A stretch of DNA of 6,407 nt from a virus. Taxonomy: Duplodnaviria; Heunggongvirae; Uroviricota; Caudoviricetes. Location of the stretch: positions 1-6,407 of IMG/VR virus record IMGVR_UViG_2737471848_000023; one strand, 5' to 3'. Below the pieces are notes generated by a model. The model was not told the origin of the DNA. It did not search any database and saw nothing but the letters and a program-made list of their open reading frames with translations. The position numbers and the translations under genes were made by a program. Of this stretch, positions 465 to 6,407 are shown piece by piece. Position 1 is the first letter of the stretch. Every line of letters begins with the position of its first letter.

Positions 465-510
465 TTATTTTCACCCCCTCGTTTAAAAAGTTTTTAGTTG
501 TGCCTCCCCC

Positions 511-736
511 CCCTCTACCCATCTACCCGAATGCTCATCATGTCAGTAATGGCGAGGCTTTCAGCGGGTAGATAGCTTTTGGGGCTCCTCTACCTGCCGT
601 CTACCCTGCTACCTGAAACTGATAAAATCAGGTAGAAGAGGTAGAGAGCTTTTATTAGCCTTCTACCTGGCCCTCTACCCACTTATCATGTTGAATAATA
701 TGTATTTATTTCATTCGGGTAGATGGGGTAGAGGGC
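511..736. repeat. iteron array, candidate replication origin
   Basis: At least 11 copies of the 6-bp core TCTACC / GGTAGA in both orientations: forward at 514, 522, 589, 600, 662, 674 (plus GCTACC at 608), reverse at 567, 631, 640, 718, 727. Adjacent same-orientation copies are 8-12 bp apart. An AT-rich segment (681..716) lies inside the array. Sits immediately 3' of the primase/helicase gene. Confidence 0.6.
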
Positions 737-748
737 TTTTACAAAAAA

Positions 749-2503
749 TTATAAAAACGCGTCGCAATCGTCTGTTGTAATTGCGTTGGTCTGCGTTACT
801 CCCTTAACTTTTCGCGTAATATATTCATGCCCGTAAACTTTCGCCGCTGGCTTCATGGCCTTGCTGAACTCAGCCACGTTTAGCGGTTTGCTCCTGCCTG
901 CGTATGCCATAAACGCCAGATAGACGCGGTAAAGGCTGTTCCTGGTCGTGTACTTCACTGAATCACCACCGCCACCCATCATCAGGCCGCGCGCTTCCTC
1001 CAGAAAATTCAGGAACTGGCAAAACTCAATAACCGGATCCGTCTGTTGCTTTATTGCCAGTGCTTCATCACCGTCACGCTGTTCCAGTAGTAAAGCCCTC
1101 GCCTTTTCAGGGTCGGTAAAGTTCGCCAGCAAGCGGCGGATAATCACAGGGATTTCAGCCGCGACCTTCTCCGGCAAATCCTTGTCCTTTTCTGCCTCGC
1201 TAACGATATTGTCAAAGCGAAAAATAACCCGACGACGTGCCACGCCTCCGGCCCGTTCGGTGAATATCATCGGGTTGTTGTTGGTCGCCAGCACCACCGC
1301 CCTGATTACCGCCGTGAAACGCTTTTCATATTTCGGGTTAATTTCCACGGGGTCGCCGCCCGTGATTTTCTTGATGCCCGTTCCTTCGCCTGTATATTTC
1401 GGCTGGTCAGCCAGGACGATAAGACGACTCCCGACAACCTGCGCGCGCCCTCCTGCATCATCGAGTGATGTCATCTCCGCGCTTACGGTGTTCTGTTTCC
1501 CTGCCAGAAGGCTGGCTATGTGTGTGAATGTACTTTTACCGCTCCCGCCGTCTCCGGTGGCCTCAATAAACATCTGCCAGTCGTACCGGTTCGCCATAAT
1601 CATGTACAGCGCGGCACATATACGCATCATCTTGCGCGGGTCTTTTCCGGCTGCGTGCTCAAGCCATTTATGAAAGTTTGGCGCGTTGTCGCGAATGTTC
1701 TCCCCTGGTGCTGGTGGCGTGTACTCAATGCCGTTGTGCGTGGTGATCCAGTTCTCCGGCGTGTGCGGGGAAAATTCCCCCGTTTTCAGGTCAAGCGCAC
1801 CATTGGCGAACGGCAGCAAATCGCCGGACGGCTCCCCCATTGGTTCGGCAATAACTTTTAACGCTTCAACGGCGTTATTGATCACGCGTTTGCTGAAAGT
1901 GGCCCTGTGCTCTGAATAGATCGCCACCATTTCGCGGCTAAGTTCCATTGTGCTGACCGGACACCATACCCCGCCGCGCCATACGTGAACGATTTCACTT
2001 TCCGGATGCACACAAACGCCATCAAATCGACCAGCAAGCATCTGTGCGCGTTCACTGTCCGCCATCTGCGAAAGTTGCGCCTTTTGCTTTACCGGAAGCT
2101 CAACGACCAGACCTTCAGAAAGATTCTGGCGCTCACGGGCCAGATATTCGCGCCAGTTCTCCACCTTCTGACCGTGCATTCCTTCGGGGTAAAATTTTGC
2201 ATCCTGTACGCCTGCCGCCGCCAGCTTCTGACCAATCTTTTTGGTCTCCACCAAGTCCAGTTCTCCTGCCTGGTACAGCCTTACGCGTTTTTTTCCATCA
2301 GGAACAATTTGCAGTGCATAAAGTTCGGCAAGCTGATTTGGCCCAAGCCACACAGGAGGCACATTATCGCCGGATGCGGGGCCGTCCTGCTCCTGCCACT
2401 GTTTTGCATGTGCCCACGCATCACTACCCGCGAAAATAATCACCTCTGTGTCTTTGTGTTTTATTCCGCGTGGCTGTTTTTTTACGTTCGGTGCCAGTTT
2501 CAT
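749..2503 (-). CDS. replication protein: primase/helicase with P-loop NTPase domain (584 aa)
   Basis: Long ORF with AGGGG 7 nt before the ATG at 2503. Walker A GDGGSGKST at about aa 317-325 (nt about 1529..1555) and Walker B-like LIVLAD at about aa 361-366, consistent with the SF3/P4-alpha/D5 family of phage-plasmid primase-helicases. N-terminal roughly 300 aa is a separate domain. Start overlaps the upstream stop (ATGA at 2503..2500). Confidence 0.9.
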   Translation of the reverse strand: MKLAPNVKKQPRGIKHKDTEVIIFAGSDAWAHAKQWQEQDGPASGDNVPPVWLGPNQLAELYALQIVPDGKKRVRLYQAGELDLVETKKIGQKLAAAGVQDAKFYPEGMHGQKVENWREYLARERQNLSEGLVVELPVKQKAQLSQMADSERAQMLAGRFDGVCVHPESEIVHVWRGGVWCPVSTMELSREMVAIYSEHRATFSKRVINNAVEALKVIAEPMGEPSGDLLPFANGALDLKTGEFSPHTPENWITTHNGIEYTPPAPGENIRDNAPNFHKWLEHAAGKDPRKMMRICAALYMIMANRYDWQMFIEATGDGGSGKSTFTHIASLLAGKQNTVSAEMTSLDDAGGRAQVVGSRLIVLADQPKYTGEGTGIKKITGGDPVEINPKYEKRFTAVIRAVVLATNNNPMIFTERAGGVARRRVIFRFDNIVSEAEKDKDLPEKVAAEIPVIIRRLLANFTDPEKARALLLEQRDGDEALAIKQQTDPVIEFCQFLNFLEEARGLMMGGGGDSVKYTTRNSLYRVYLAFMAYAGRSKPLNVAEFSKAMKPAAKVYGHEYITRKVKGVTQTNAITTDDCDAFL

Positions 2504-2799
2504 TTTTTACCCCTGAATACGTTAAGCATCTTTTTTATTTCCTGAATATTGGCGCGTGCTTTCTCCCTGCTGGTTGGCTTACTGCGGGGCGCTGCCTGTA
2601 CCAGAGAAAAATCACGCCGGAACTGATAAACAGGCATCACGCAATCATATTCGTAACCTTCACGGCGGTAGGTTACGCGCCGTTCTTCCACGCCCTTAAT
2701 CATTACCGTGCCGCCGTACTGGTCGCGGTAAATATCACCGCGCGTAAATTTAGGGTGAGTGTTGCCACTGGCAGTTAAGCCAGAATATTTAAGTTTCAT
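2500..2799 (-). CDS. hypothetical small protein (99 aa)
   Basis: ORF from track; GGAG about 10 nt upstream of ATG at 2799; stop overlaps primase start. Protein is basic and protein-like in composition. No family assigned. Confidence 0.7.
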   Translation of the reverse strand: MKLKYSGLTASGNTHPKFTRGDIYRDQYGGTVMIKGVEERRVTYRREGYEYDCVMPVYQFRRDFSLVQAAPRSKPTSREKARANIQEIKKMLNVFRGKK

Positions 2800-2804
2800 T
2801 ATTT

Positions 2805-3038
2805 TTATTCTCCGGTGTGCTGTTCTTTATATCTGTCGTGCAATAGATCTATTTCTTGCAGTTCCATTATTACAGGCTCAAGAAGCGTTATTAATGCCGT
2901 GGCAATTCTTGATTTTTGTTTGTCGCGTTCATTGTCGCCAAGTGTTTCAAGCCATATGCGAAATATTTCCATCATGTTTTCACTGTGAGAAAGTGCAAGA
3001 AATGCGCGGTCTATTGTTTGGTGGTAAATATCACGCAT
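2805..3038 (-). CDS. hypothetical small protein (77 aa)
   Basis: ORF from track; GAGGA 9 nt upstream of ATG at 3038; 8-nt overlap (ATGCGTGA) with the upstream gene stop. Acidic, predicted helical. Confidence 0.65.
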   Translation of the reverse strand: MRDIYHQTIDRAFLALSHSENMMEIFRIWLETLGDNERDKQKSRIATALITLLEPVIMELQEIDLLHDRYKEQHTGE

Positions 3039-3264
3039 GGCTTACATCCTCAGGAAATTTTCTTCTATAACGCGCCTCTGCCACATATTCCGCATAATCG
3101 GCGGCGATATTCAGTACATCAAGCCCCGTTGATTTATATTCTCTCGTGGAAAGTAAGAAAAAAGCCGCTCTAATAAGCTCTGGCATTGACGAAAGCGCAT
3201 CAGCCGCATCATCAGGAACGCCGGAAAATTCCTGTTTCAGGGAATTAAAACGATCATCACGCAT
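3031..3264 (-). CDS. hypothetical small protein (77 aa; start trimmed from track ORF 3031..3285)
   Basis: Internal ATG at 3264 is preceded by AGGGGGG about 6 nt upstream and lies 4 nt after the upstream gene stop (3257..3259). The track start at 3285 has no RBS and would overlap the upstream gene by 29 nt. Confidence 0.6.
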   Translation of the reverse strand: MRDDRFNSLKQEFSGVPDDAADALSSMPELIRAAFFLLSTREYKSTGLDVLNIAADYAEYVAEARYRRKFPEDVSHA

Positions 3265-3622
3265 GTTTACCCCCCTGAATGACATGATAACCGCAACTGG
3301 TCAGCAACTCGATAAATTCCGGCAGTGTGCCGAAACAGCAATCATCACGCAGCCGTTCGCAGGATACCTCGACGCCGTTTTCGTAGTGACTCACCATACA
3401 TCCGGTAAAATGCAGATCATCATCGTGATGGCTCGTTGACGGCTTAATCAGTCGCGCACGTTCCGCCAGTTCCAGCAATGCTTCAACGCTTCCGGCAATT
3501 GCACCATCCGGCAGGTGATAATTACGCACTATGCGCCCGTTCTCCACATTGACCAGCAACTGCCCGGTAAATTTCTCGTCAAACTGAATGCTGTTAAGGT
3601 CAGAAATTGACAGGTTATGCAT
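3257..3622 (-). CDS. hypothetical Cys/His-rich protein (121 aa; start trimmed from track ORF 3257..3640)
   Basis: ATG at 3622 is preceded by AGGAGG (minus strand reads ATGTGCAGGAGGTGCACC ATG). Begins MHNLSISDL. Five Cys (positions 75, 88, 95, 96, 110) and several His in the C-terminal half suggest possible metal binding. 8-nt overlap (ATGCATAA) with the upstream gene. Confidence 0.65.
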   Translation of the reverse strand: MHNLSISDLNSIQFDEKFTGQLLVNVENGRIVRNYHLPDGAIAGSVEALLELAERARLIKPSTSHHDDDLHFTGCMVSHYENGVEVSCERLRDDCCFGTLPEFIELLTSCGYHVIQGGKHA

Positions 3623-3839
3623 GGTGCACCTCCTGCACATCAGCCATGATAATTTTTCCGGCCTTATCCAGTGCCTGATCGGCTTTTAGCTGCACAAATG
3701 CTAAATAATGGAAGATGCATTCTGATTCTCTGGCTGCGTGTTTATGCGCCCTGTCAGCAATAACAGAAATATCAATCAGCGCGTGCATCAGTGTAGTGAG
3801 TGCGGCGGCGGTTGCGTCCGGTGTGGTTTTATTGTGCAT
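3615..3839 (-). CDS. hypothetical small protein (74 aa)
   Basis: ORF from track; AGGGGGAA 5 nt upstream of ATG at 3839; 11-nt overlap with the upstream gene; stop overlaps next start. Confidence 0.6.
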   Translation of the reverse strand: MHNKTTPDATAAALTTLMHALIDISVIADRAHKHAARESECIFHYLAFVQLKADQALDKAGKIIMADVQEVHHA

Positions 3840-4035
3840 AGGTTTCCCCCTGACGAATACGGGCAGCGAATACCATCACGCAGCCAGCCGGAGATTGCTG
3901 GCGTGCTTCCTGTTCGCTGGTGGCCTCAATGGTAATCACGCGCGGTTGTGCCGTGCTCAGGGCGATAAAACGCCAGATGTATTTATTCAGGTTGTGCGAG
4001 TCCCGCCCTTGCGGGTGTGTGGTATGATTTCTCAT
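3829..4035 (-). CDS. hypothetical small protein (68 aa), first gene of the leftward operon; tentatively Icd-like
   Basis: C-terminal part of track ORF 3829..4623. ATG at 4035 with GAGG about 7 nt upstream (GATTATCGAGGCAGCT ATG). Sequence MRNHTTHPQGRDSHNLNKYIWRFIALSTAQPRVITIEATSEQEARQQ... The Icd-like resemblance is from memory only and unverified. Confidence 0.5.
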   Translation of the reverse strand: MRNHTTHPQGRDSHNLNKYIWRFIALSTAQPRVITIEATSEQEARQQSPAGCVMVFAARIRQGETYAQ

Positions 4036-4132
4036 AGCTGCCTCGATAATCTTGCTATCGTTGGTGGTTAGAAGCCCTGCGAGTGGTAACGACACTTGCG
4101 GGGCTTTGCATTTATGCACCTTGATAACCTCA

Positions 4133-4168
4133 AGGTGTGGCCCACTATATTCTTTAGGTGTGGCCCAC
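4133..4168. promoter_or_regulatory. two perfect 13-bp direct repeats AGGTGTGGCCCAC, each containing the palindrome GTGGnCCAC; candidate operator
   Basis: Exact copies at 4133..4145 and 4156..4168, 23 bp start to start (about two helical turns). They lie between the divergent RHH gene and the leftward operon and overlap the predicted -10 and spacer/-35 of the leftward promoter. Confidence 0.55.
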
Positions 4169-4173
4169 GTCAA
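4144..4173 (-). promoter_or_regulatory. candidate sigma70 promoter for the leftward small-ORF/primase operon
   Basis: On the minus strand: -35 TTGACG (4173..4168), 18-bp spacer, -10 TATAGT (4149..4144). Predicted start near 4137 gives an about 100-nt leader before the ATG at 4035. Prediction by eye only. Confidence 0.4.
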
Positions 4174-4175
4174 GA

Positions 4176-4204
4176 GTTTTATTTGTGCTTTTTCTGTGTA
4201 TACT
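4176..4204 (+). promoter_or_regulatory. candidate promoter for the RHH gene
   Basis: -10 TATACT at 4199..4204 immediately preceded by TG; the -35 region (about 4176..4181) is a poor match, so this may depend on an activator or be mis-assigned. Back to back with the leftward promoter. Confidence 0.3.
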
Positions 4205-4234
4205 GTCCCCCACCAATCCAACAGAGGAATAGAA

Positions 4235-4414
4235 ATGGCAACGGGTACAACAAACGCAAAATCACAAGCTCTAAAGGCTCGTGTACCACACGAAATAGTA
4301 AACGAGATGGAATTAGTGAAAGAATCAGGCGAAAGCACATCACAATTCATCATTGCGTCAATGCAAGGCGAGATCAAACGCCGCCAGCGCCGCAAGGCCA
4401 AAGAGCAGGAATAG
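4235..4414 (+). CDS. small ribbon-helix-helix (CopG/Arc-like) DNA-binding protein (59 aa)
   Basis: ATG at 4235 with GAGGA 6 nt upstream; stop TAG at 4412..4414. Sequence MATGTTNAKSQALKARVPHEIVNEMELVKESGESTSQFIIASMQGEIKRRQRRKAKEQE has the RHH pattern: a short beta strand (KARVP), helix, G-x-S/T turn (SGESTSQ), second helix, basic tail. The only plus-strand gene in the window. Confidence 0.6.
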   Translation: MATGTTNAKSQALKARVPHEIVNEMELVKESGESTSQFIIASMQGEIKRRQRRKAKEQE

Positions 4415-4502: not shown

Positions 4503-4530
4503 GGCGACCGCCACAGGTCGCCTTTGTTTT
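4503..4530 (+). terminator. intrinsic terminator (plus-strand orientation)
   Basis: Perfect 7-bp GC-rich stem GGCGACC (4503..4509) / GGTCGCC (4516..4522) with 6-nt loop, followed by TTTGTTTT (4523..4530). On the minus strand the hairpin is followed by AATGGGAAAACA, so it is not obviously a terminator for alpA. Confidence 0.6.
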
Positions 4531-4549
4531 ATGTGTCATATGCTCCCCT

Positions 4550-4759
4550 TTACGCTGCCTTACCTGCATTAATACGATCCCTGCTTTTAACCCATTCCAT
4601 AACCTCAGACTTAACCCAGCCAACAGAACGACCGCCGAGACTGATACGTGAGGGGAAGCGGCCCTGCTTTTCCATCTCGTAACGAGTTGTGCGGCAAACG
4701 CCTGTTAGCTCTCTGCATTCTTTTTCGCGGATTACACGATCTTCATTTATTTCGCGCAT
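4550..4759 (-). CDS. alpA: AlpA-family transcriptional regulator (69 aa)
   Basis: ORF from track; AGGA 6 nt upstream of ATG at 4759. Sequence VIREKECRELTGVCRTTRYEMEKQGRFPSRISLGGRSVGWVKSEVMEWVKSR matches the AlpA pattern (..TG.sr.T.Y......FP....LG.RsVGW...Ev.eWv..R). Lies directly downstream of int on the same strand. Confidence 0.9.
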   Translation of the reverse strand: MREINEDRVIREKECRELTGVCRTTRYEMEKQGRFPSRISLGGRSVGWVKSEVMEWVKSRDRINAGKAA

Positions 4760-5088
4760 AAAAAGTCCTACATAAAATTACGTATAGAAATTTTTGTTTC
4801 GCTGTGGATATACGGAAAGATATTACTTCTTAGCTTTTCTTACCTCTTAAATTGAATACGTAACCTTTCTGAACTTTATGTTCGTCAAAGTTCGCTAGAG
4901 TTTGCTGCTGTTCATAAAATCGTGTCACGAGTTTTTAAGCGACGCAACAAAAAATGTCGTCATTTGGTATTACACTTAAATTATCTCATTAAAAACAAAT
5001 AGATAAACCATCAGGTGTTGGAACAATCAAGAAACAGAGAATAAGGATTCAGGAGAGTGAATTTCAATTTTTTCGATGATTGACAAAT

Positions 5089-5162
5089 AAAAAAACGACG
5101 AACTTTGGTCGAACTTCGACGATTTTTTTAAGACGGCTATTTTCCCGAAGAAAAACAGCCGT
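5089..5162. terminator. hairpins downstream of int stop; candidate int terminator
   Basis: Hairpin 5133..5162 (stem ACGGCT/AGCCGT plus inner TTTTC/GAAAA). Second imperfect hairpin 5096..5121 is flanked by A7 (5089..5095) and T7 (5123..5129), so on the minus strand it is followed by a U7 run. The stem has one mismatch, so the call is tentative. Confidence 0.35.
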
Positions 5163-5168
5163 AATTTG

Positions 5169-6407
5169 TCAAGAATTTTGGGAGTAAATTCGCGGGGTCA
5201 TAACAACGATTTTTTCATCATTGTTCTGGAGAAGCTCGAGACGCTCACCCCATAGATTAAGAGCGTCACGTTTTGCATCAAGATAACGGGAGTGATTATA
5301 GACTCGTTGCATTCCTGGCAACTGGTGCGCGGTTAGCTGCTCCACTACATGAGGATCAACGCCTAAATCGTTCAGCATCGTTGTAAACGTGTGCCGGATG
5401 TCGTGCAACGTCCATGGGGCTTGATTAATGCGTCTGTGTGCCGTTCTTCCGTACTCTGATACGGATGATTGCCCTTTCAGTTCTCCGAGCAATAATCCCG
5501 TGTGCCTGTTCTGCTCCACCAGCTTCATGACAAACGGCAAGATCGCTTCCGGTATTGGCCTGAATATTGCTACCTTCGTTTTGCTGTGTTCTTTCGGCAC
5601 GGTCCAGAGCATTTCTTTAAAATCCCATTCCTGGACCTCAGAGCGTCTTAGCTCAGTGGTACGACATCCGAAGACAATCAGGAGGCGAATCAGGGCGCTG
5701 TAGTACGGTGGGTAAATTTTTTCATCAAGGGCGCGTAGTAATTCCCCAAGCTCCTTGTTTGTTAGTACGCGCTCGCTTATTTCTGCTTTTTTCCCAACAT
5801 CACCGACAACCATATCATCGAGAACGTTGGTAATTGCGTAGCGTCGTTTTCGGCAGTACTTAAGCGCCTGTTTGCACACCTGTAGCAAAAATCCGGCTGA
5901 TACCGGATTACGCTTAGCAAGCTGGTCAAAACAGGCCAGCCAGTGGCGTAGCTCGCATTTTTCCAGTGGCATAGCGCCAATCTGGCTAATTATGTGTTTA
6001 TTGATCCGGCTTTTCAGTGATTCGTAGTCAGTGCGCTTTTCCTTTGCGTACGATTCAAGCCAGTAAGTGAGAGCTTCCTTAACCGTCACGGGGGCTAAAG
6101 CGTCCTGTACAGCATGATTAAGTTCATAGCGCGGATTTTTCCCCTCAGCCAGCCAGGCGCGACACTGTGCCGCTTTTTCCCTGGCAGCTTTCAGGCTCAG
6201 ATCGGGATAATTGCCCAGCCTCAGACGTTCCGGTGATATCTGCCTACCAGTTCCGGCCCTGTAAGTGAAATACCAGGTTAACAGGCCATTGGTTGAATGC
6301 CTTACGCTAAGGTTGCCACCATCATTAAAAAAGGTGCTTTTTGTGGTTGGTGATCCGCTTAATTTTCGTAAAAGAGTGTCGCTAAGTCTATGAATTGCCC
6401 TGCTCAT
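5169..6407 (-). CDS. int: tyrosine site-specific integrase (412 aa)
   Basis: Full ORF with ATG at the last 3 nt of the window. N-terminal arm-type domain (NDGGNLSVRHSTNGLLTWYFTYR...RLRLGNYPDLSLKAARE). C-terminal catalytic region with HDIRHTFTTML (H-x-x-R) and the tyrosine region YNHSRY. Overall layout matches P4/CP4-type integrases. Confidence 0.95.
   Translation of the reverse strand: MSRAIHRLSDTLLRKLSGSPTTKSTFFNDGGNLSVRHSTNGLLTWYFTYRAGTGRQISPERLRLGNYPDLSLKAAREKAAQCRAWLAEGKNPRYELNHAVQDALAPVTVKEALTYWLESYAKEKRTDYESLKSRINKHIISQIGAMPLEKCELRHWLACFDQLAKRNPVSAGFLLQVCKQALKYCRKRRYAITNVLDDMVVGDVGKKAEISERVLTNKELGELLRALDEKIYPPYYSALIRLLIVFGCRTTELRRSEVQEWDFKEMLWTVPKEHSKTKVAIFRPIPEAILPFVMKLVEQNRHTGLLLGELKGQSSVSEYGRTAHRRINQAPWTLHDIRHTFTTMLNDLGVDPHVVEQLTAHQLPGMQRVYNHSRYLDAKRDALNLWGERLELLQNNDEKIVVMTPRIYSQNS

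What the first reader, a model, noticed from the sequence alone, without database searches (positions are those of the whole stretch)
4036..4137. Structured leader of about 100 nt between the leftward promoter and the first ORF
The predicted start sits at a perfect 8-bp inverted repeat CACCTTGA-N5-TCAAGGTG (4117..4137) that also overlaps repeat 1. Further in, a 9-bp stem (4072..4080 with 4098..4106, one mismatch) encloses a 17-nt loop. A long structured leader before a replication operon could act in RNA-level control (attenuation, processing or stability), which would parallel the RNA-based immunity of P4. The inverted repeat could instead be a DNA site for a dimeric protein.
Basis: partly seen in the sequence, partly recalled or inferred. 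Interest (0 to 1): 0.4.

Follow-up and report, generated by a model that had tools for sequence, protein, structure and literature searches.

The report
Antisense RNA gene facing island promoter
The hairpins seen in the 100-nt leader are real and conserved, but they are built to fold on the opposite strand, so they most likely belong to a small, undescribed antisense RNA that covers the ribosome-binding site of the first gene of a phage-satellite replication operon.

Summary
Both inverted repeats exist. The inner one is longer than reported: 14-nt arms at 4072-4085/4093-4106 with a 7-nt loop. A conserved sigma-70-like promoter (-10 at 4144-4149) predicts a leader of about 100 nt before an Icd-like ORF, in an E. 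coli PICI/P4-like satellite.

Comparison of more than 300 related loci shows hairpins with compensatory changes upstream of every icd-like gene. The pairing is strongly strand-biased. There are 61 G·U cells on the window + strand and none of the reverse kind. The + strand fold is more stable in 77 of 77 variants.

With a conserved -10 hexamer (TGgTATGAT, 4020-4028) and a U-rich tail, this predicts an RNA of about 80 nt (about 4034-4116, +). It has two stem-loops, is convergent with the leftward promoter, and is complementary to the icd Shine-Dalgarno and AUG.

It matches no Rfam family. P4 carries a C4/CI RNA in the equivalent position. The neighbouring repeats are operators of a divergently encoded Arc-like ribbon-helix-helix (RHH) protein. 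The layout resembles P22 sar with Arc/Mnt, or plasmid countertranscripts with CopG/CopB.

Transcription and function are inferred, not shown. The 5' repeat (4117-4137) remains ambiguous.

The parts
4034..4116 (+). Predicted small antisense RNA of about 80 nt, convergent with the leftward promoter and complementary to the icd-like Shine-Dalgarno, AUG and most of the leader. The ends are inferred.
   Evidence: MFE -39.4 kcal/mol, z = -6.05, MFE frequency 0.61. The complementary sense segment gives -20.7 kcal/mol, z = -2.3. The covariance model hit covers window 4033-4120 on the + strand at 82.8 bits.
4020..4028 (+). Putative extended -10 (TGgTATGAT) of the antisense RNA. It lies inside codons 3-5 of the icd-like ORF. 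No good -35 is present.
   Evidence: A TAnnnT hexamer (TATGAT, TATGCT, TAGACT, TATAAT or TATAGT) lies exactly 4 or 10 nt 5' of the anti-ATG in 41 of 41 distinct contexts. TGn is always present in this type.
4035..4070 (+). Stem-loop 1 of the antisense RNA. Lower stem 4035-4042/4063-4070 with three G·U pairs; it contains the anti-SD CCTC at 4041-4044. Upper stem 4044-4048/4056-4060. The 7-nt apical loop at 4049-4055 is hypervariable.
   Evidence: The upper stem has 3 of 5 pairs with double changes and is 100% paired. The lower stem shows G·U to U-A and U·G to U-A changes in L179 and L197. Loop diversity is 0.33, against about 0 in the flanks, with 12 alleles.
4071..4107 (+). It forms 15 bp with three G·U pairs around loop 4086-4092. 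It is terminator-like only on this strand.
   Evidence: Six of 13 pairs show double changes and 97.9% of cells are paired. Unrelated sequences keep the hairpin, for example L231, L185 and L215. The antisense hairpin is more stable in 31 of 32 variants.
4105..4116 (+). U-rich tail TTTGCATTTATG following stem-loop 2. This is the probable 3' end region.
   Evidence: A G(C/T)N0-2 T3-6 tail is present in nearly all variants. A home-made terminator score gives +5.6 for the window, an antisense mean of -3 (26 of 63 above 0), and a sense mean of -40 (0 of 63 above 0).
4036..4138 (-). Leader of the leftward operon, with a predicted start near 4136-4138. It would be the target of the antisense RNA and contains the imperfect mirror-image stem-loops.
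4117..4137 (-). Perfect 8-bp inverted repeat at the predicted 5' end of the leader. It is either a 5'-terminal hairpin of the mRNA or an extra inverted operator end.
   Evidence: In other immunity types the CACCTT/AAGGTG arms are kept with arm-to-arm spacers of 8-11 nt that vary in sequence. One type has a different-sequence hairpin at the same place, and a few have none. There is no strand bias.
4144..4173 (-). Leftward promoter: -35 TTGACG at 4173-4168 and -10 TATAGT at 4149-4144.
   Evidence: It is conserved in related loci.
4133..4168 (.). Two operator repeats GGTGTGGCCCAC, at 4133-4144 and 4157-4168, overlapping the start site/-10 and the -35 of the leftward promoter. A third, degenerate copy lies near 4205-4216.
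   Evidence: The repeat sequence changes together with the divergent small protein and not with AlpA.
4235..4414 (+). Divergent 59-aa YlcI/YnfO-family gene, the probable ribbon-helix-helix repressor of the module.
   Evidence: NCBIfam NF041551, E 3e-18. The family profile's best PDB hit is the P22 Arc repressor (E 0.01), followed by CopG, HicB and MazE RHH domains.
3829..4035 (-). Icd-like ORF of 68 aa, first gene of the leftward operon. Shine-Dalgarno GAGG at 4044-4041. Its stop overlaps the start of the next ORF.
   Evidence: NCBIfam NF033153, E 1.5e-19.

Best explanation
The window is the regulatory end of an E. coli phage satellite of the PICI / capsid-forming PICI type. It carries int, alpA, a divergent RHH repressor gene, and a leftward operon running from an icd-like gene to a D5-type primase and an iteron origin.

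The conserved hairpins in the leader region belong to a small RNA of about 80 nt transcribed from the + strand. Its -10 element lies inside the first codons of the icd-like gene. The RNA runs towards the leftward promoter and ends at a hairpin followed by a U-rich tail.

Because it is encoded opposite the leader, it is fully complementary to the icd-like Shine-Dalgarno, start codon and upstream leader. The mechanism below is inferred:
- The RNA pairs with leftward transcripts, probably starting through its two apical loops.
- Pairing blocks translation of the Icd-like protein.
- Overlapping ORFs (translational coupling) and Rho polarity extend the block to the downstream replication genes.
- The face-to-face promoters, about 100 bp apart, add transcriptional interference.
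- Together with the RHH repressor and its operators, this gives two-layer control. It keeps a potentially toxic division inhibitor and satellite replication off until the leftward promoter is strongly induced.

Shown here: the structure, its strand, its conservation, its position and the conserved -10-like hexamer. Inferred: that the RNA is made, where it ends, and what it does.
For: 1. Covariation. On 30 diverse sequences the + strand structure has 98.5% of cells paired and 9 of 18 pairs with double changes. No shuffle of 500 reached the observed values, and slid controls gave 35-53% paired.
2. Strand bias. There are 61 G·U cells on the + strand and 0 cells that would be G·U on the leader strand. 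G·U occurs at 12 of the 18 pair positions. The + strand fold is more stable in 31 of 32 hairpin variants. It is also more stable in 77 of 77 whole-RNA variants, by a mean of 11.7 kcal/mol, with 383 against 53 G·U pairs.
3. Universality. A covariance model hits the strand opposite icd, ending at the icd ATG, in 97 of 98 further loci at 39-101 bits. It also hits E. coli Nissle at 90 bits, but not P4.
4. Sequence-independent structure. Unrelated stem sequences keep the hairpin in L231, L185 and L215.
5. Promoter. A -10-like hexamer sits at a fixed 4 or 10 nt from the anti-ATG in 41 of 41 contexts. Amino-acid-changing variants keep or improve it: His to Tyr gives TATAAT, and His to Ser gives TAGACT.
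6. Terminator asymmetry. The hairpin plus tail scores as terminator-like only on the + strand.
7. Conserved motif explained. The leader motif CUAACCACC becomes the 3' arm of stem-loop 1, pairing with the anti-SD/anti-AUG segment.
8. Context. P4 has its C4/CI RNA directly upstream of an Icd-like domain ORF, so RNA control at this position has precedent.
Against: - No transcript, start site or 3' end has been observed; everything is comparative.
- The promoter has no convincing -35. In the second leader type it also lacks the TG extension.
- The -10 lies in coding sequence, so part of its conservation could be due to the protein.
- The U tract is interrupted and my terminator score is only borderline: mean -3, with 26 of 63 above 0. 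The RNA may read through.
- Many sequences are related or recombinant, so cell counts overstate the number of independent events.
- The leader strand is A/C-rich, which by itself favours A·C over G·U mismatches on that strand.
Confidence: 0.6

Rival explanations
1. The hairpins act in the leader itself. A structured 5' UTR would control attenuation, processing or stability of the leftward transcript, perhaps as the target of AlpA-type antitermination or as a processed P4 CI-like RNA.
For: The leader strand still folds better than shuffles, z = -3.4. A small hairpin abuts or encloses the Shine-Dalgarno in all types. Most immunity types have a hairpin at the very 5' end of the leader. AlpA homologues can be antiterminators that act on leader terminators (PMC7969949).
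Against: All 61 wobble cells become A·C mismatches on this strand and none favours it. The leader strand is less stable in 77 of 77 variants. No U tract follows the stem, and the terminator score is below zero in 63 of 63 variants. There is no C4, isrK, c4-a1b1 or any other Rfam match, while P4 as a positive control is found.
Confidence: 0.12
2. The + strand structures are not a discrete small RNA. They are part of a longer rightward transcript from the promoter inside icd that reads through the hairpin, collides with the leftward promoter, and may continue into the RHH repressor gene. This would resemble an establishment promoter like lambda P_RE, or the face-to-face promoters of phage 186.
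For: The terminator is only borderline. The proximal promoter of the RHH gene has a conserved -10 (TATACT, 4199-4204) but no recognisable -35 and was not called by the scan. The promoters are face to face about 100 bp apart.
Against: The hairpin plus U-rich tail is kept in almost all variants. The two-stem-loop unit is compact and starts right at the predicted 5' end. A read-through transcript would have to cross two repressor operators and the leftward promoter.
Confidence: 0.15
3. The inverted repeats are DNA sites, palindromic binding sites for the RHH repressor, AlpA or a replication protein, with no RNA role.
For: The arms of the 5' repeat (CACCTT/AAGGTG) are the constant end of the operator repeats. 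In several immunity types the 5' hairpin is simply the palindromic operator.
Against: For the two inner hairpins, pairing is maintained through G·T combinations and through complete sequence replacement. This makes sense for RNA but not for a protein-recognised DNA palindrome. The distance between the arms of the 5' repeat varies from 8 to 11 nt between types, which is awkward for a fixed dimer site.
Confidence: 0.05

Closest known systems
P22 immI: sar antisense RNA with the Arc/Mnt ribbon-helix-helix repressors (own knowledge: Liao et al. and Wu et al., Genes Dev 1987)
   Same: A small RNA of about 70-80 nt is transcribed convergently to an early promoter and is complementary to the ribosome-binding site of a downstream gene. 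The module's promoter is also controlled by small RHH repressors bound to repeated operators. The best PDB hit of the repressor profile here is Arc itself.
   Different: There is no sequence or structure match to any Rfam model at E up to 10 across all 4227 families. By recollection, Rfam includes a sar family; this was not checked. The target here is an icd-like ORF heading a replication operon of a satellite, not the antirepressor gene ant. There are two stem-loops with hypervariable loops.
Plasmid countertranscript copy control (own knowledge): R1 CopA/CopT with CopB and the tap leader peptide; pMV158 RNAII with CopG
   Same: An antisense RNA with stem-loops covers the leader and translation initiation region of a small first ORF, to which the replication gene is translationally coupled. 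A small transcriptional repressor (CopG is an RHH protein) acts on the same promoter. Apical loops determine specificity.
   Different: The element is an integrated phage satellite and not a plasmid. The first ORF is an Icd-like domain protein. There is no match to CopA-like or ctRNA Rfam models. A role in copy-number control has not been shown.
C4 / CI / CA immunity RNAs of P1, P7, P4 and N15 (Rfam RF01695, clan CL00128)
   Same: The genomic position is the same: a regulatory RNA just upstream of an Icd-like ORF at the head of an early operon. P4 has C4 at 8420-8507 followed by an ORF with the Icd-like domain. The presumed logic is also shared: block icd translation, then polarity on downstream genes.
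   Different: Those RNAs are encoded on the same strand as the operon. They are cut out of the leader and act through short loops on separate target sites (a1b1/a2b2, seqA/seqC). Here there is no C4, isrK or c4-a1b1 match, and the structure is on the opposite strand.
Type I toxin-antitoxin pairs with 5'-overlapping antitoxin RNA, such as symE/SymR (own knowledge)
   Same: A small, potentially toxic protein has its Shine-Dalgarno and AUG covered by a cis-encoded antisense RNA. P1 Icd blocks FtsZ (PMC11897509, abstract listed).
   Different: The ORF is the first gene of a long coupled operon under a repressor and is not a stand-alone addiction module. The protein is hydrophilic with no membrane segment visible in the sequence. 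Toxicity of this homologue is untested.

Membership tests
C4/CI antisense RNA family (Rfam RF01695; P1 c4, P4 CI) | Match to the C4 covariance model | tested here: not met
   No hit at E up to 1 in the whole window, at E up to 10 in 3990-4240, or at gathering score in 11 related loci. The positive control P4 scores 74.9 bits.
C4/CI antisense RNA family (Rfam RF01695; P1 c4, P4 CI) | RNA encoded on the same strand as the operon it controls and excised from its leader | tested here: not met
   The conserved structure is selected on the opposite strand: 61 G·U against 0, and 77 of 77 variants more stable.
C4/CI antisense RNA family (Rfam RF01695; P1 c4, P4 CI) | Separate short target sites (a1b1/a2b2, seqA/seqC; Rfam c4-a1b1, isrK) | tested here: not met
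   No isrK or c4-a1b1 match. Both are found in P4.
C4/CI antisense RNA family (Rfam RF01695; P1 c4, P4 CI) | Lies immediately upstream of an Icd-like ORF | tested here: met
   NF033153 matches the window ORF at E 1.5e-19 and the P4 ORF at E 7.8e-21.
Cis-encoded antisense small RNA covering a translation start (P22 sar / plasmid countertranscript type) | Conserved stem-loop structure on the strand opposite the target, supported by covariation | tested here: met
Cis-encoded antisense small RNA covering a translation start (P22 sar / plasmid countertranscript type) | Own promoter on the opposite strand just inside or downstream of the target start | tested here: inconclusive
   A conserved -10-like hexamer is present in 41 of 41 contexts, with a TG extension in this type. 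The -35 is weak or absent, and there are no transcript data.
Cis-encoded antisense small RNA covering a translation start (P22 sar / plasmid countertranscript type) | Intrinsic terminator defining a short RNA | tested here: inconclusive
   A G+C-rich hairpin plus an interrupted U tract is present. The home-made score is +5.6 for the window but averages -3 over variants. The generic scan did not call it.
Cis-encoded antisense small RNA covering a translation start (P22 sar / plasmid countertranscript type) | Complementarity to the Shine-Dalgarno and start codon of the regulated gene | tested here: met
   The predicted RNA at 4034-4116 includes the complement of GAGG (4041-4044) and of the first two bases of the ATG (4034-4035). 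The covariance-model hit starts at 4033.
Cis-encoded antisense small RNA covering a translation start (P22 sar / plasmid countertranscript type) | The RNA is made and represses the target | not testable with these tools
   This needs Northern blot, RACE or dRNA-seq, and reporter fusions.
Leader intrinsic terminator bypassed by an AlpA-type antiterminator (P. aeruginosa alpB type) | Hairpin followed by a U tract on the leader strand, between the promoter and the first gene | tested here: not met
   The sense-strand terminator score is below zero in 63 of 63 variants (mean -40), and the tail is UUCUAACCACC.
Leader intrinsic terminator bypassed by an AlpA-type antiterminator (P. aeruginosa alpB type) | AlpA binding element between -35 and -10 that tracks the AlpA variant | tested here: not met
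   The repeat between -35 and -10 varies with the RHH protein. Identical AlpA proteins occur with different repeats.
Ribbon-helix-helix repressor/operator module (context of the finding) | Small protein with an RHH fold and repeated operators that change together with it | tested here: met
   In the 47 protein/repeat combinations tabulated, the repeat sequence changes together with the protein variant. Homology to RHH proteins is weak but consistent: Arc at E 0.01, plus CopG, HicB and MazE, and Pfam Arc, RHH_1 and RHH_5 for some members. The fold itself was not modelled.

The most novel reading that the evidence does not exclude
The two apical loops of the antisense RNA are specificity determinants under diversifying selection. 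Related satellites in one cell would then fall into RNA-defined immunity or incompatibility groups, analogous to plasmid countertranscript groups and to P1/P7 c4 heteroimmunity. This RNA layer would recombine independently of the protein repressor/operator layer. It would mean that many enterobacterial PICIs or capsid-forming PICIs use an undescribed two-key (RHH plus antisense RNA) immunity system in the place where P4 uses CI RNA.
Probability: 0.25. Interest if true: 0.65.

Novelty: new member of a known kind. Interest (0 to 1): 0.45.

Why it matters
Gram-negative PICIs are described as controlled by the activator AlpA, with no known repressor or RNA layer (PMC6092414). This window and its relatives show a conserved immunity-type module at the head of the replication operon. 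The module has an Arc-like repressor with variable operators and, very probably, a convergent antisense RNA over the first gene's translation start.

The RNA region occurs in 1407 of 5426 complete E. coli genomes, with up to six copies per genome, and in several other enterobacterial genera. It is absent from Rfam.

If the RNA is real, it gives a testable explanation for three things: how these satellites stay silent, how a division-inhibitor homologue is kept off, and why co-resident islands differ in short loop sequences. It would also show that the position occupied by C4/CI RNA in P1 and P4 has been filled by a different kind of RNA regulator.

Tried and rejected
- **Rfam.** Scans of the whole window, of the 251-nt region at E up to 10, and of 11 related loci gave only spurious microRNA, pseudoknot or lncRNA hits.
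- **Literature.** A full-text search for the conserved sequence motifs found nothing. Searches on PICI, AlpA, Icd and antisense RNA found no description of this element.
- **C4/CI-like processed leader RNA.** Rejected on model score and on strand.
- **AlpA-type antitermination over a leader terminator.** Rejected because there is no sense-strand terminator and the repeats do not track AlpA.
- **Internal pairing between the two apical loops, in the a'/a2 manner.** Rejected because loop alleles assort independently.
- **rrn/lambda boxA-like or tRNA/RNase P-like reading of CUAACCACC.** The resemblance is superficial on reading the sequence. The motif is better explained as the 3' arm of stem-loop 1.
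- **A second antisense promoter at GATAAT 4044-4049.** It is not conserved among loop alleles.
- **YUNR U-turn motif in the loops.** It is not consistently present, by reading the alleles.
- **Do co-resident islands carry different loops?** Only four same-genome pairs were available. All differ, but that is expected by chance with about 25 types, so the test is uninformative.
- **Other.** tblastn of the Icd-like protein against phage records found only one satellite-like record. Sequence-only searches of the single RHH protein against Pfam and PDB found nothing; only the family profile did.

Full report
**Context.** The window is one end of an integrative element.
- It carries a tyrosine integrase (5169-6407, -) and an AlpA-family gene (4550-4759, -).
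- A 59-aa YlcI/YnfO-family gene lies on the + strand (4235-4414).
- A leftward operon starts with a 68-aa Icd-like ORF (3829-4035). It continues through small overlapping ORFs and a DUF4222 protein to a D5-type primase (749-2503).
- An iteron-rich region follows the primase.

A 98% identical E. coli relative continues into SSB and a prohead protease/capsid fusion gene and sits next to cspD. The element is therefore a phage satellite of the PICI / capsid-forming PICI type.

**Checking the observation.** Both inverted repeats are present.
- The outer one, 4117-4124/4130-4137, is a perfect 8 bp repeat.
- A sigma-70-like promoter (TTGACG-18-TATAGT, 4173-4144, minus strand) is the best site in the region. 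It is conserved in 46 promoter variants of related loci.
- The promoter predicts a start near 4136-4138 and a leader of about 100 nt.
- The leader strand folds better than shuffles, z = -3.4. The complementary strand folds far better: -49.3 against -35.3 kcal/mol, z = -6.25.

The reason for the difference is visible in the sequence. The two mismatches of the inner stem are C·A and A·C on the leader strand, but U·G and G·U on the + strand.

**Comparative evidence.** I collected 11 loci from other species, 160 close relatives from viral and metagenome contigs, and 160 more using two divergent Icd-like proteins as queries.

Every locus has a hairpin upstream of the icd-like gene, followed by YCUNACCA and then a small hairpin at the Shine-Dalgarno. 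There are about 30 hairpin variants with clear compensatory changes.

On an alignment of 30 diverse sequences read on the + strand, RNAalifold predicts two helices totalling 18 pairs.
- 98.5% of cells are paired.
- 9 pairs show changes on both sides.
- No shuffle of 500 reached the observed values.
- Slid controls gave 35-53% paired.

A covariance model built from this alignment hits the strand opposite icd, ending at the icd start codon, in 97 of 98 further loci. It also hits E. coli Nissle, but not P4. Some hits have entirely different stem sequences that still pair, such as L231, L185 and L215.

**Which strand.** This is the decisive point.
- In the 18 pairs over 30 sequences there are 462 Watson-Crick cells and 61 G·U cells on the + strand. 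No cell would be G·U on the leader strand.
- G·U appears at 12 of the 18 pair positions.
- The + strand hairpin is more stable in 31 of 32 variants of the inner stem.
- The whole + strand RNA is more stable in 77 of 77 distinct sequences, by a mean of 11.7 kcal/mol, with 383 against 53 G·U pairs in the minimum-energy folds.

A DNA palindrome for a protein would not tolerate G·T. A leader-strand RNA structure would show the opposite bias.

The conserved leader motif CUAACCACC also finds an explanation. On the + strand it is GGUGGUUAG, the 3' arm of a longer first stem whose 5' arm is the complement of the Shine-Dalgarno-to-AUG segment. That stem also shows wobble-to-Watson-Crick changes in L179 and L197.

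**Ends of the RNA.**
- *5' side.* All 41 distinct contexts have a TAnnnT hexamer exactly 4 or 10 nt before the anti-ATG. The hexamers are TATGAT (19), TATGCT (9), TAGACT (8), TATAAT (4) and TATAGT (1).
- *5' side, this leader type.* The hexamer is always preceded by TGn; in the window this is TGgTATGAT at 4020-4028.
- *5' side, coding context.* The hexamer lies in the poorly conserved N-terminal codons outside the Icd domain. Amino-acid replacements keep or improve it.
- *5' side, weakness.* There is no good -35.
- *3' side.* The second hairpin is followed in nearly all variants by G(C/U), then a run of three to six U.
- *3' side, score.* With my own implementation of a hairpin-plus-tail score, the + strand is borderline terminator-like. 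The window scores +5.6, the mean is -3, and 26 of 63 variants are above zero. The leader strand never is: mean -40, 0 of 63 above zero.

The RNA predicted from these ends, 4034-4116, folds into exactly the two conserved stem-loops. It gives -39.4 kcal/mol, z = -6.05, and the minimum-energy structure holds 61% of the ensemble. The complementary leader segment gives -20.7 kcal/mol, z = -2.3.

**Variation.** Among 153 close relatives the 7-nt apical loop of the first stem (4049-4055) has 12 alleles and a mean diversity of 0.33. The 16 nt before it and the stem after it are invariant, and third codon positions of icd average 0.10. The apical part of the second stem is also highly variable. Loop alleles of the two stems assort independently. 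This fits loops that define pairing specificity, but it could also reflect relaxed constraint.

**The surrounding module.** The 12-nt repeats at 4133-4144 and 4157-4168 overlap the start/-10 and the -35 of the leftward promoter.
- In related loci the repeat sequence changes together with the variant of the divergent small protein, mainly in its N-terminal strand region.
- Identical AlpA proteins occur with different repeats.
- A profile of these small proteins finds the P22 Arc repressor as best solved structure (E 0.01), then CopG, HicB and MazE ribbon-helix-helix domains. Some members match Pfam Arc or RHH models.

The repeats are therefore most likely operators of an RHH repressor.

**The 5' inverted repeat (4117-4137).** Its arms, CACCTT and AAGGTG, are the constant end of the operators. 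They are kept in several immunity types with arm-to-arm spacers of 8-11 nt.
- One type has a different-sequence hairpin at the same place.
- Some types have the palindromic operator itself there, and a few have nothing.
- There is no strand bias.

It may be a 5'-terminal stabilising hairpin of the leftward mRNA or an extra operator element. I cannot decide between them.

**Mechanism (inferred).** A constitutive small RNA convergent with the leftward promoter would pair with the leader and occlude the icd-like Shine-Dalgarno and AUG. The leftward ORFs overlap one another, and the leader is C-rich and G-poor. Blocking icd translation should therefore also reduce the downstream replication genes through loss of translational coupling and Rho polarity. 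Face-to-face promoters about 100 bp apart add interference. With the RHH repressor this gives two layers of silencing.

**Comparison with known systems.** P4 carries C4/CI RNA (74.9 bits) and its seqA-type targets directly upstream of an ORF whose C-terminal half is an Icd-like domain. The position is thus homologous to the P4/P1 immunity RNA position. However, nothing in the window or in 11 relatives matches C4, isrK, c4-a1b1 or any other Rfam family, and the strand is opposite.

By architecture the closest systems are:
- P22 sar with Arc/Mnt;
- plasmid countertranscripts with CopB/CopG and a coupled leader ORF.

This comparison rests on my own knowledge of those systems. The published descriptions of Gram-negative PICIs that I read mention AlpA as activator and no repressor or RNA of this kind. 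One paper notes C4/isrK hits in some PICIs.

**Verdict.** It is probably wrong on strand and mode. The element is best described as a new, widespread family of cis-antisense RNA, present in 26% of complete E. coli genomes. It belongs to a well-known mechanistic class and is supported by strong comparative evidence but no transcript data.

Noticed in passing
window 503-736: A dense array of TCTACC(C/T)/GGTAGA iterons in both orientations, at least a dozen copies and several long inverted pairs, lies just downstream of the primase gene. It is presumably the satellite origin. The large inverted repeat at 656-737 caused spurious microRNA hits in Rfam.
   Followed up: partly
window 4030-4032 (codon 2 of the icd-like ORF): The second codon is unusually variable among close relatives (AGA 120, TTA 25, CGA 5, CTA 2, ATA 1), while neighbouring codons are invariant. 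It lies between the putative antisense -10 and its start site.
   Followed up: partly
window 4003-4016: A conserved G+C-rich inverted repeat, CCCGC-N4-GCGGG, lies inside icd codons 7-12, just upstream (on the + strand) of the putative antisense -10. It is present in all leaders of this type. Its function is unknown.
   Followed up: no
window 4503-4531 (+ strand): A terminator-like hairpin, GGCGACC-N6-GGTCGCC followed by TTTGTTTTAT, lies about 90 nt downstream of the RHH gene stop (4414) and just before the convergent alpA gene (4550-4759).
   Followed up: no
window 4760-5168: A non-coding gap of about 400 nt between alpA and int contains a promoter-like site (5067-5038, minus strand) and a short terminator-like hairpin (5108-5120, + strand). 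It may be the helper-responsive alpA control region described for PICIs.
   Followed up: no
related loci, e.g. L057, L022, L025: Some immunity types encode the RHH protein with a C-terminal extension of about 40 aa (…EGSGENPLVSSLDALA…REELQRRK). Other loci carry a different RHH family at the same place (…MRI.PELKEQF…RRGIEPKG). The repressor gene is therefore a swappable cassette.
   Followed up: partly
L002 2333-2698 (Escherichia ruysiae): The icd-like ORF is 121 aa. It has the N-terminus of the second leader type, fused through an insert of about 55 aa to an Icd domain of the window type. It looks like a recombinant or a partial duplication.
   Followed up: no
L334 4409-4888 (E. coli Nissle): RefSeq annotates a partial Icd-like pseudogene between the RHH gene and alpA, overlapping the 3' part of the longer RHH gene. 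This may be an annotation artefact or a remnant of a second module.
   Followed up: no
window 2500-4035 (- strand): Most consecutive leftward ORFs overlap: 3829-3839, 3615-3640, 3257-3285, 3031-3038 and 2500-2503. The exception is a 5-nt gap between the ORFs ending at 2805 and starting at 2799. This suggests a chain of translational coupling from icd to the primase.
   Followed up: no
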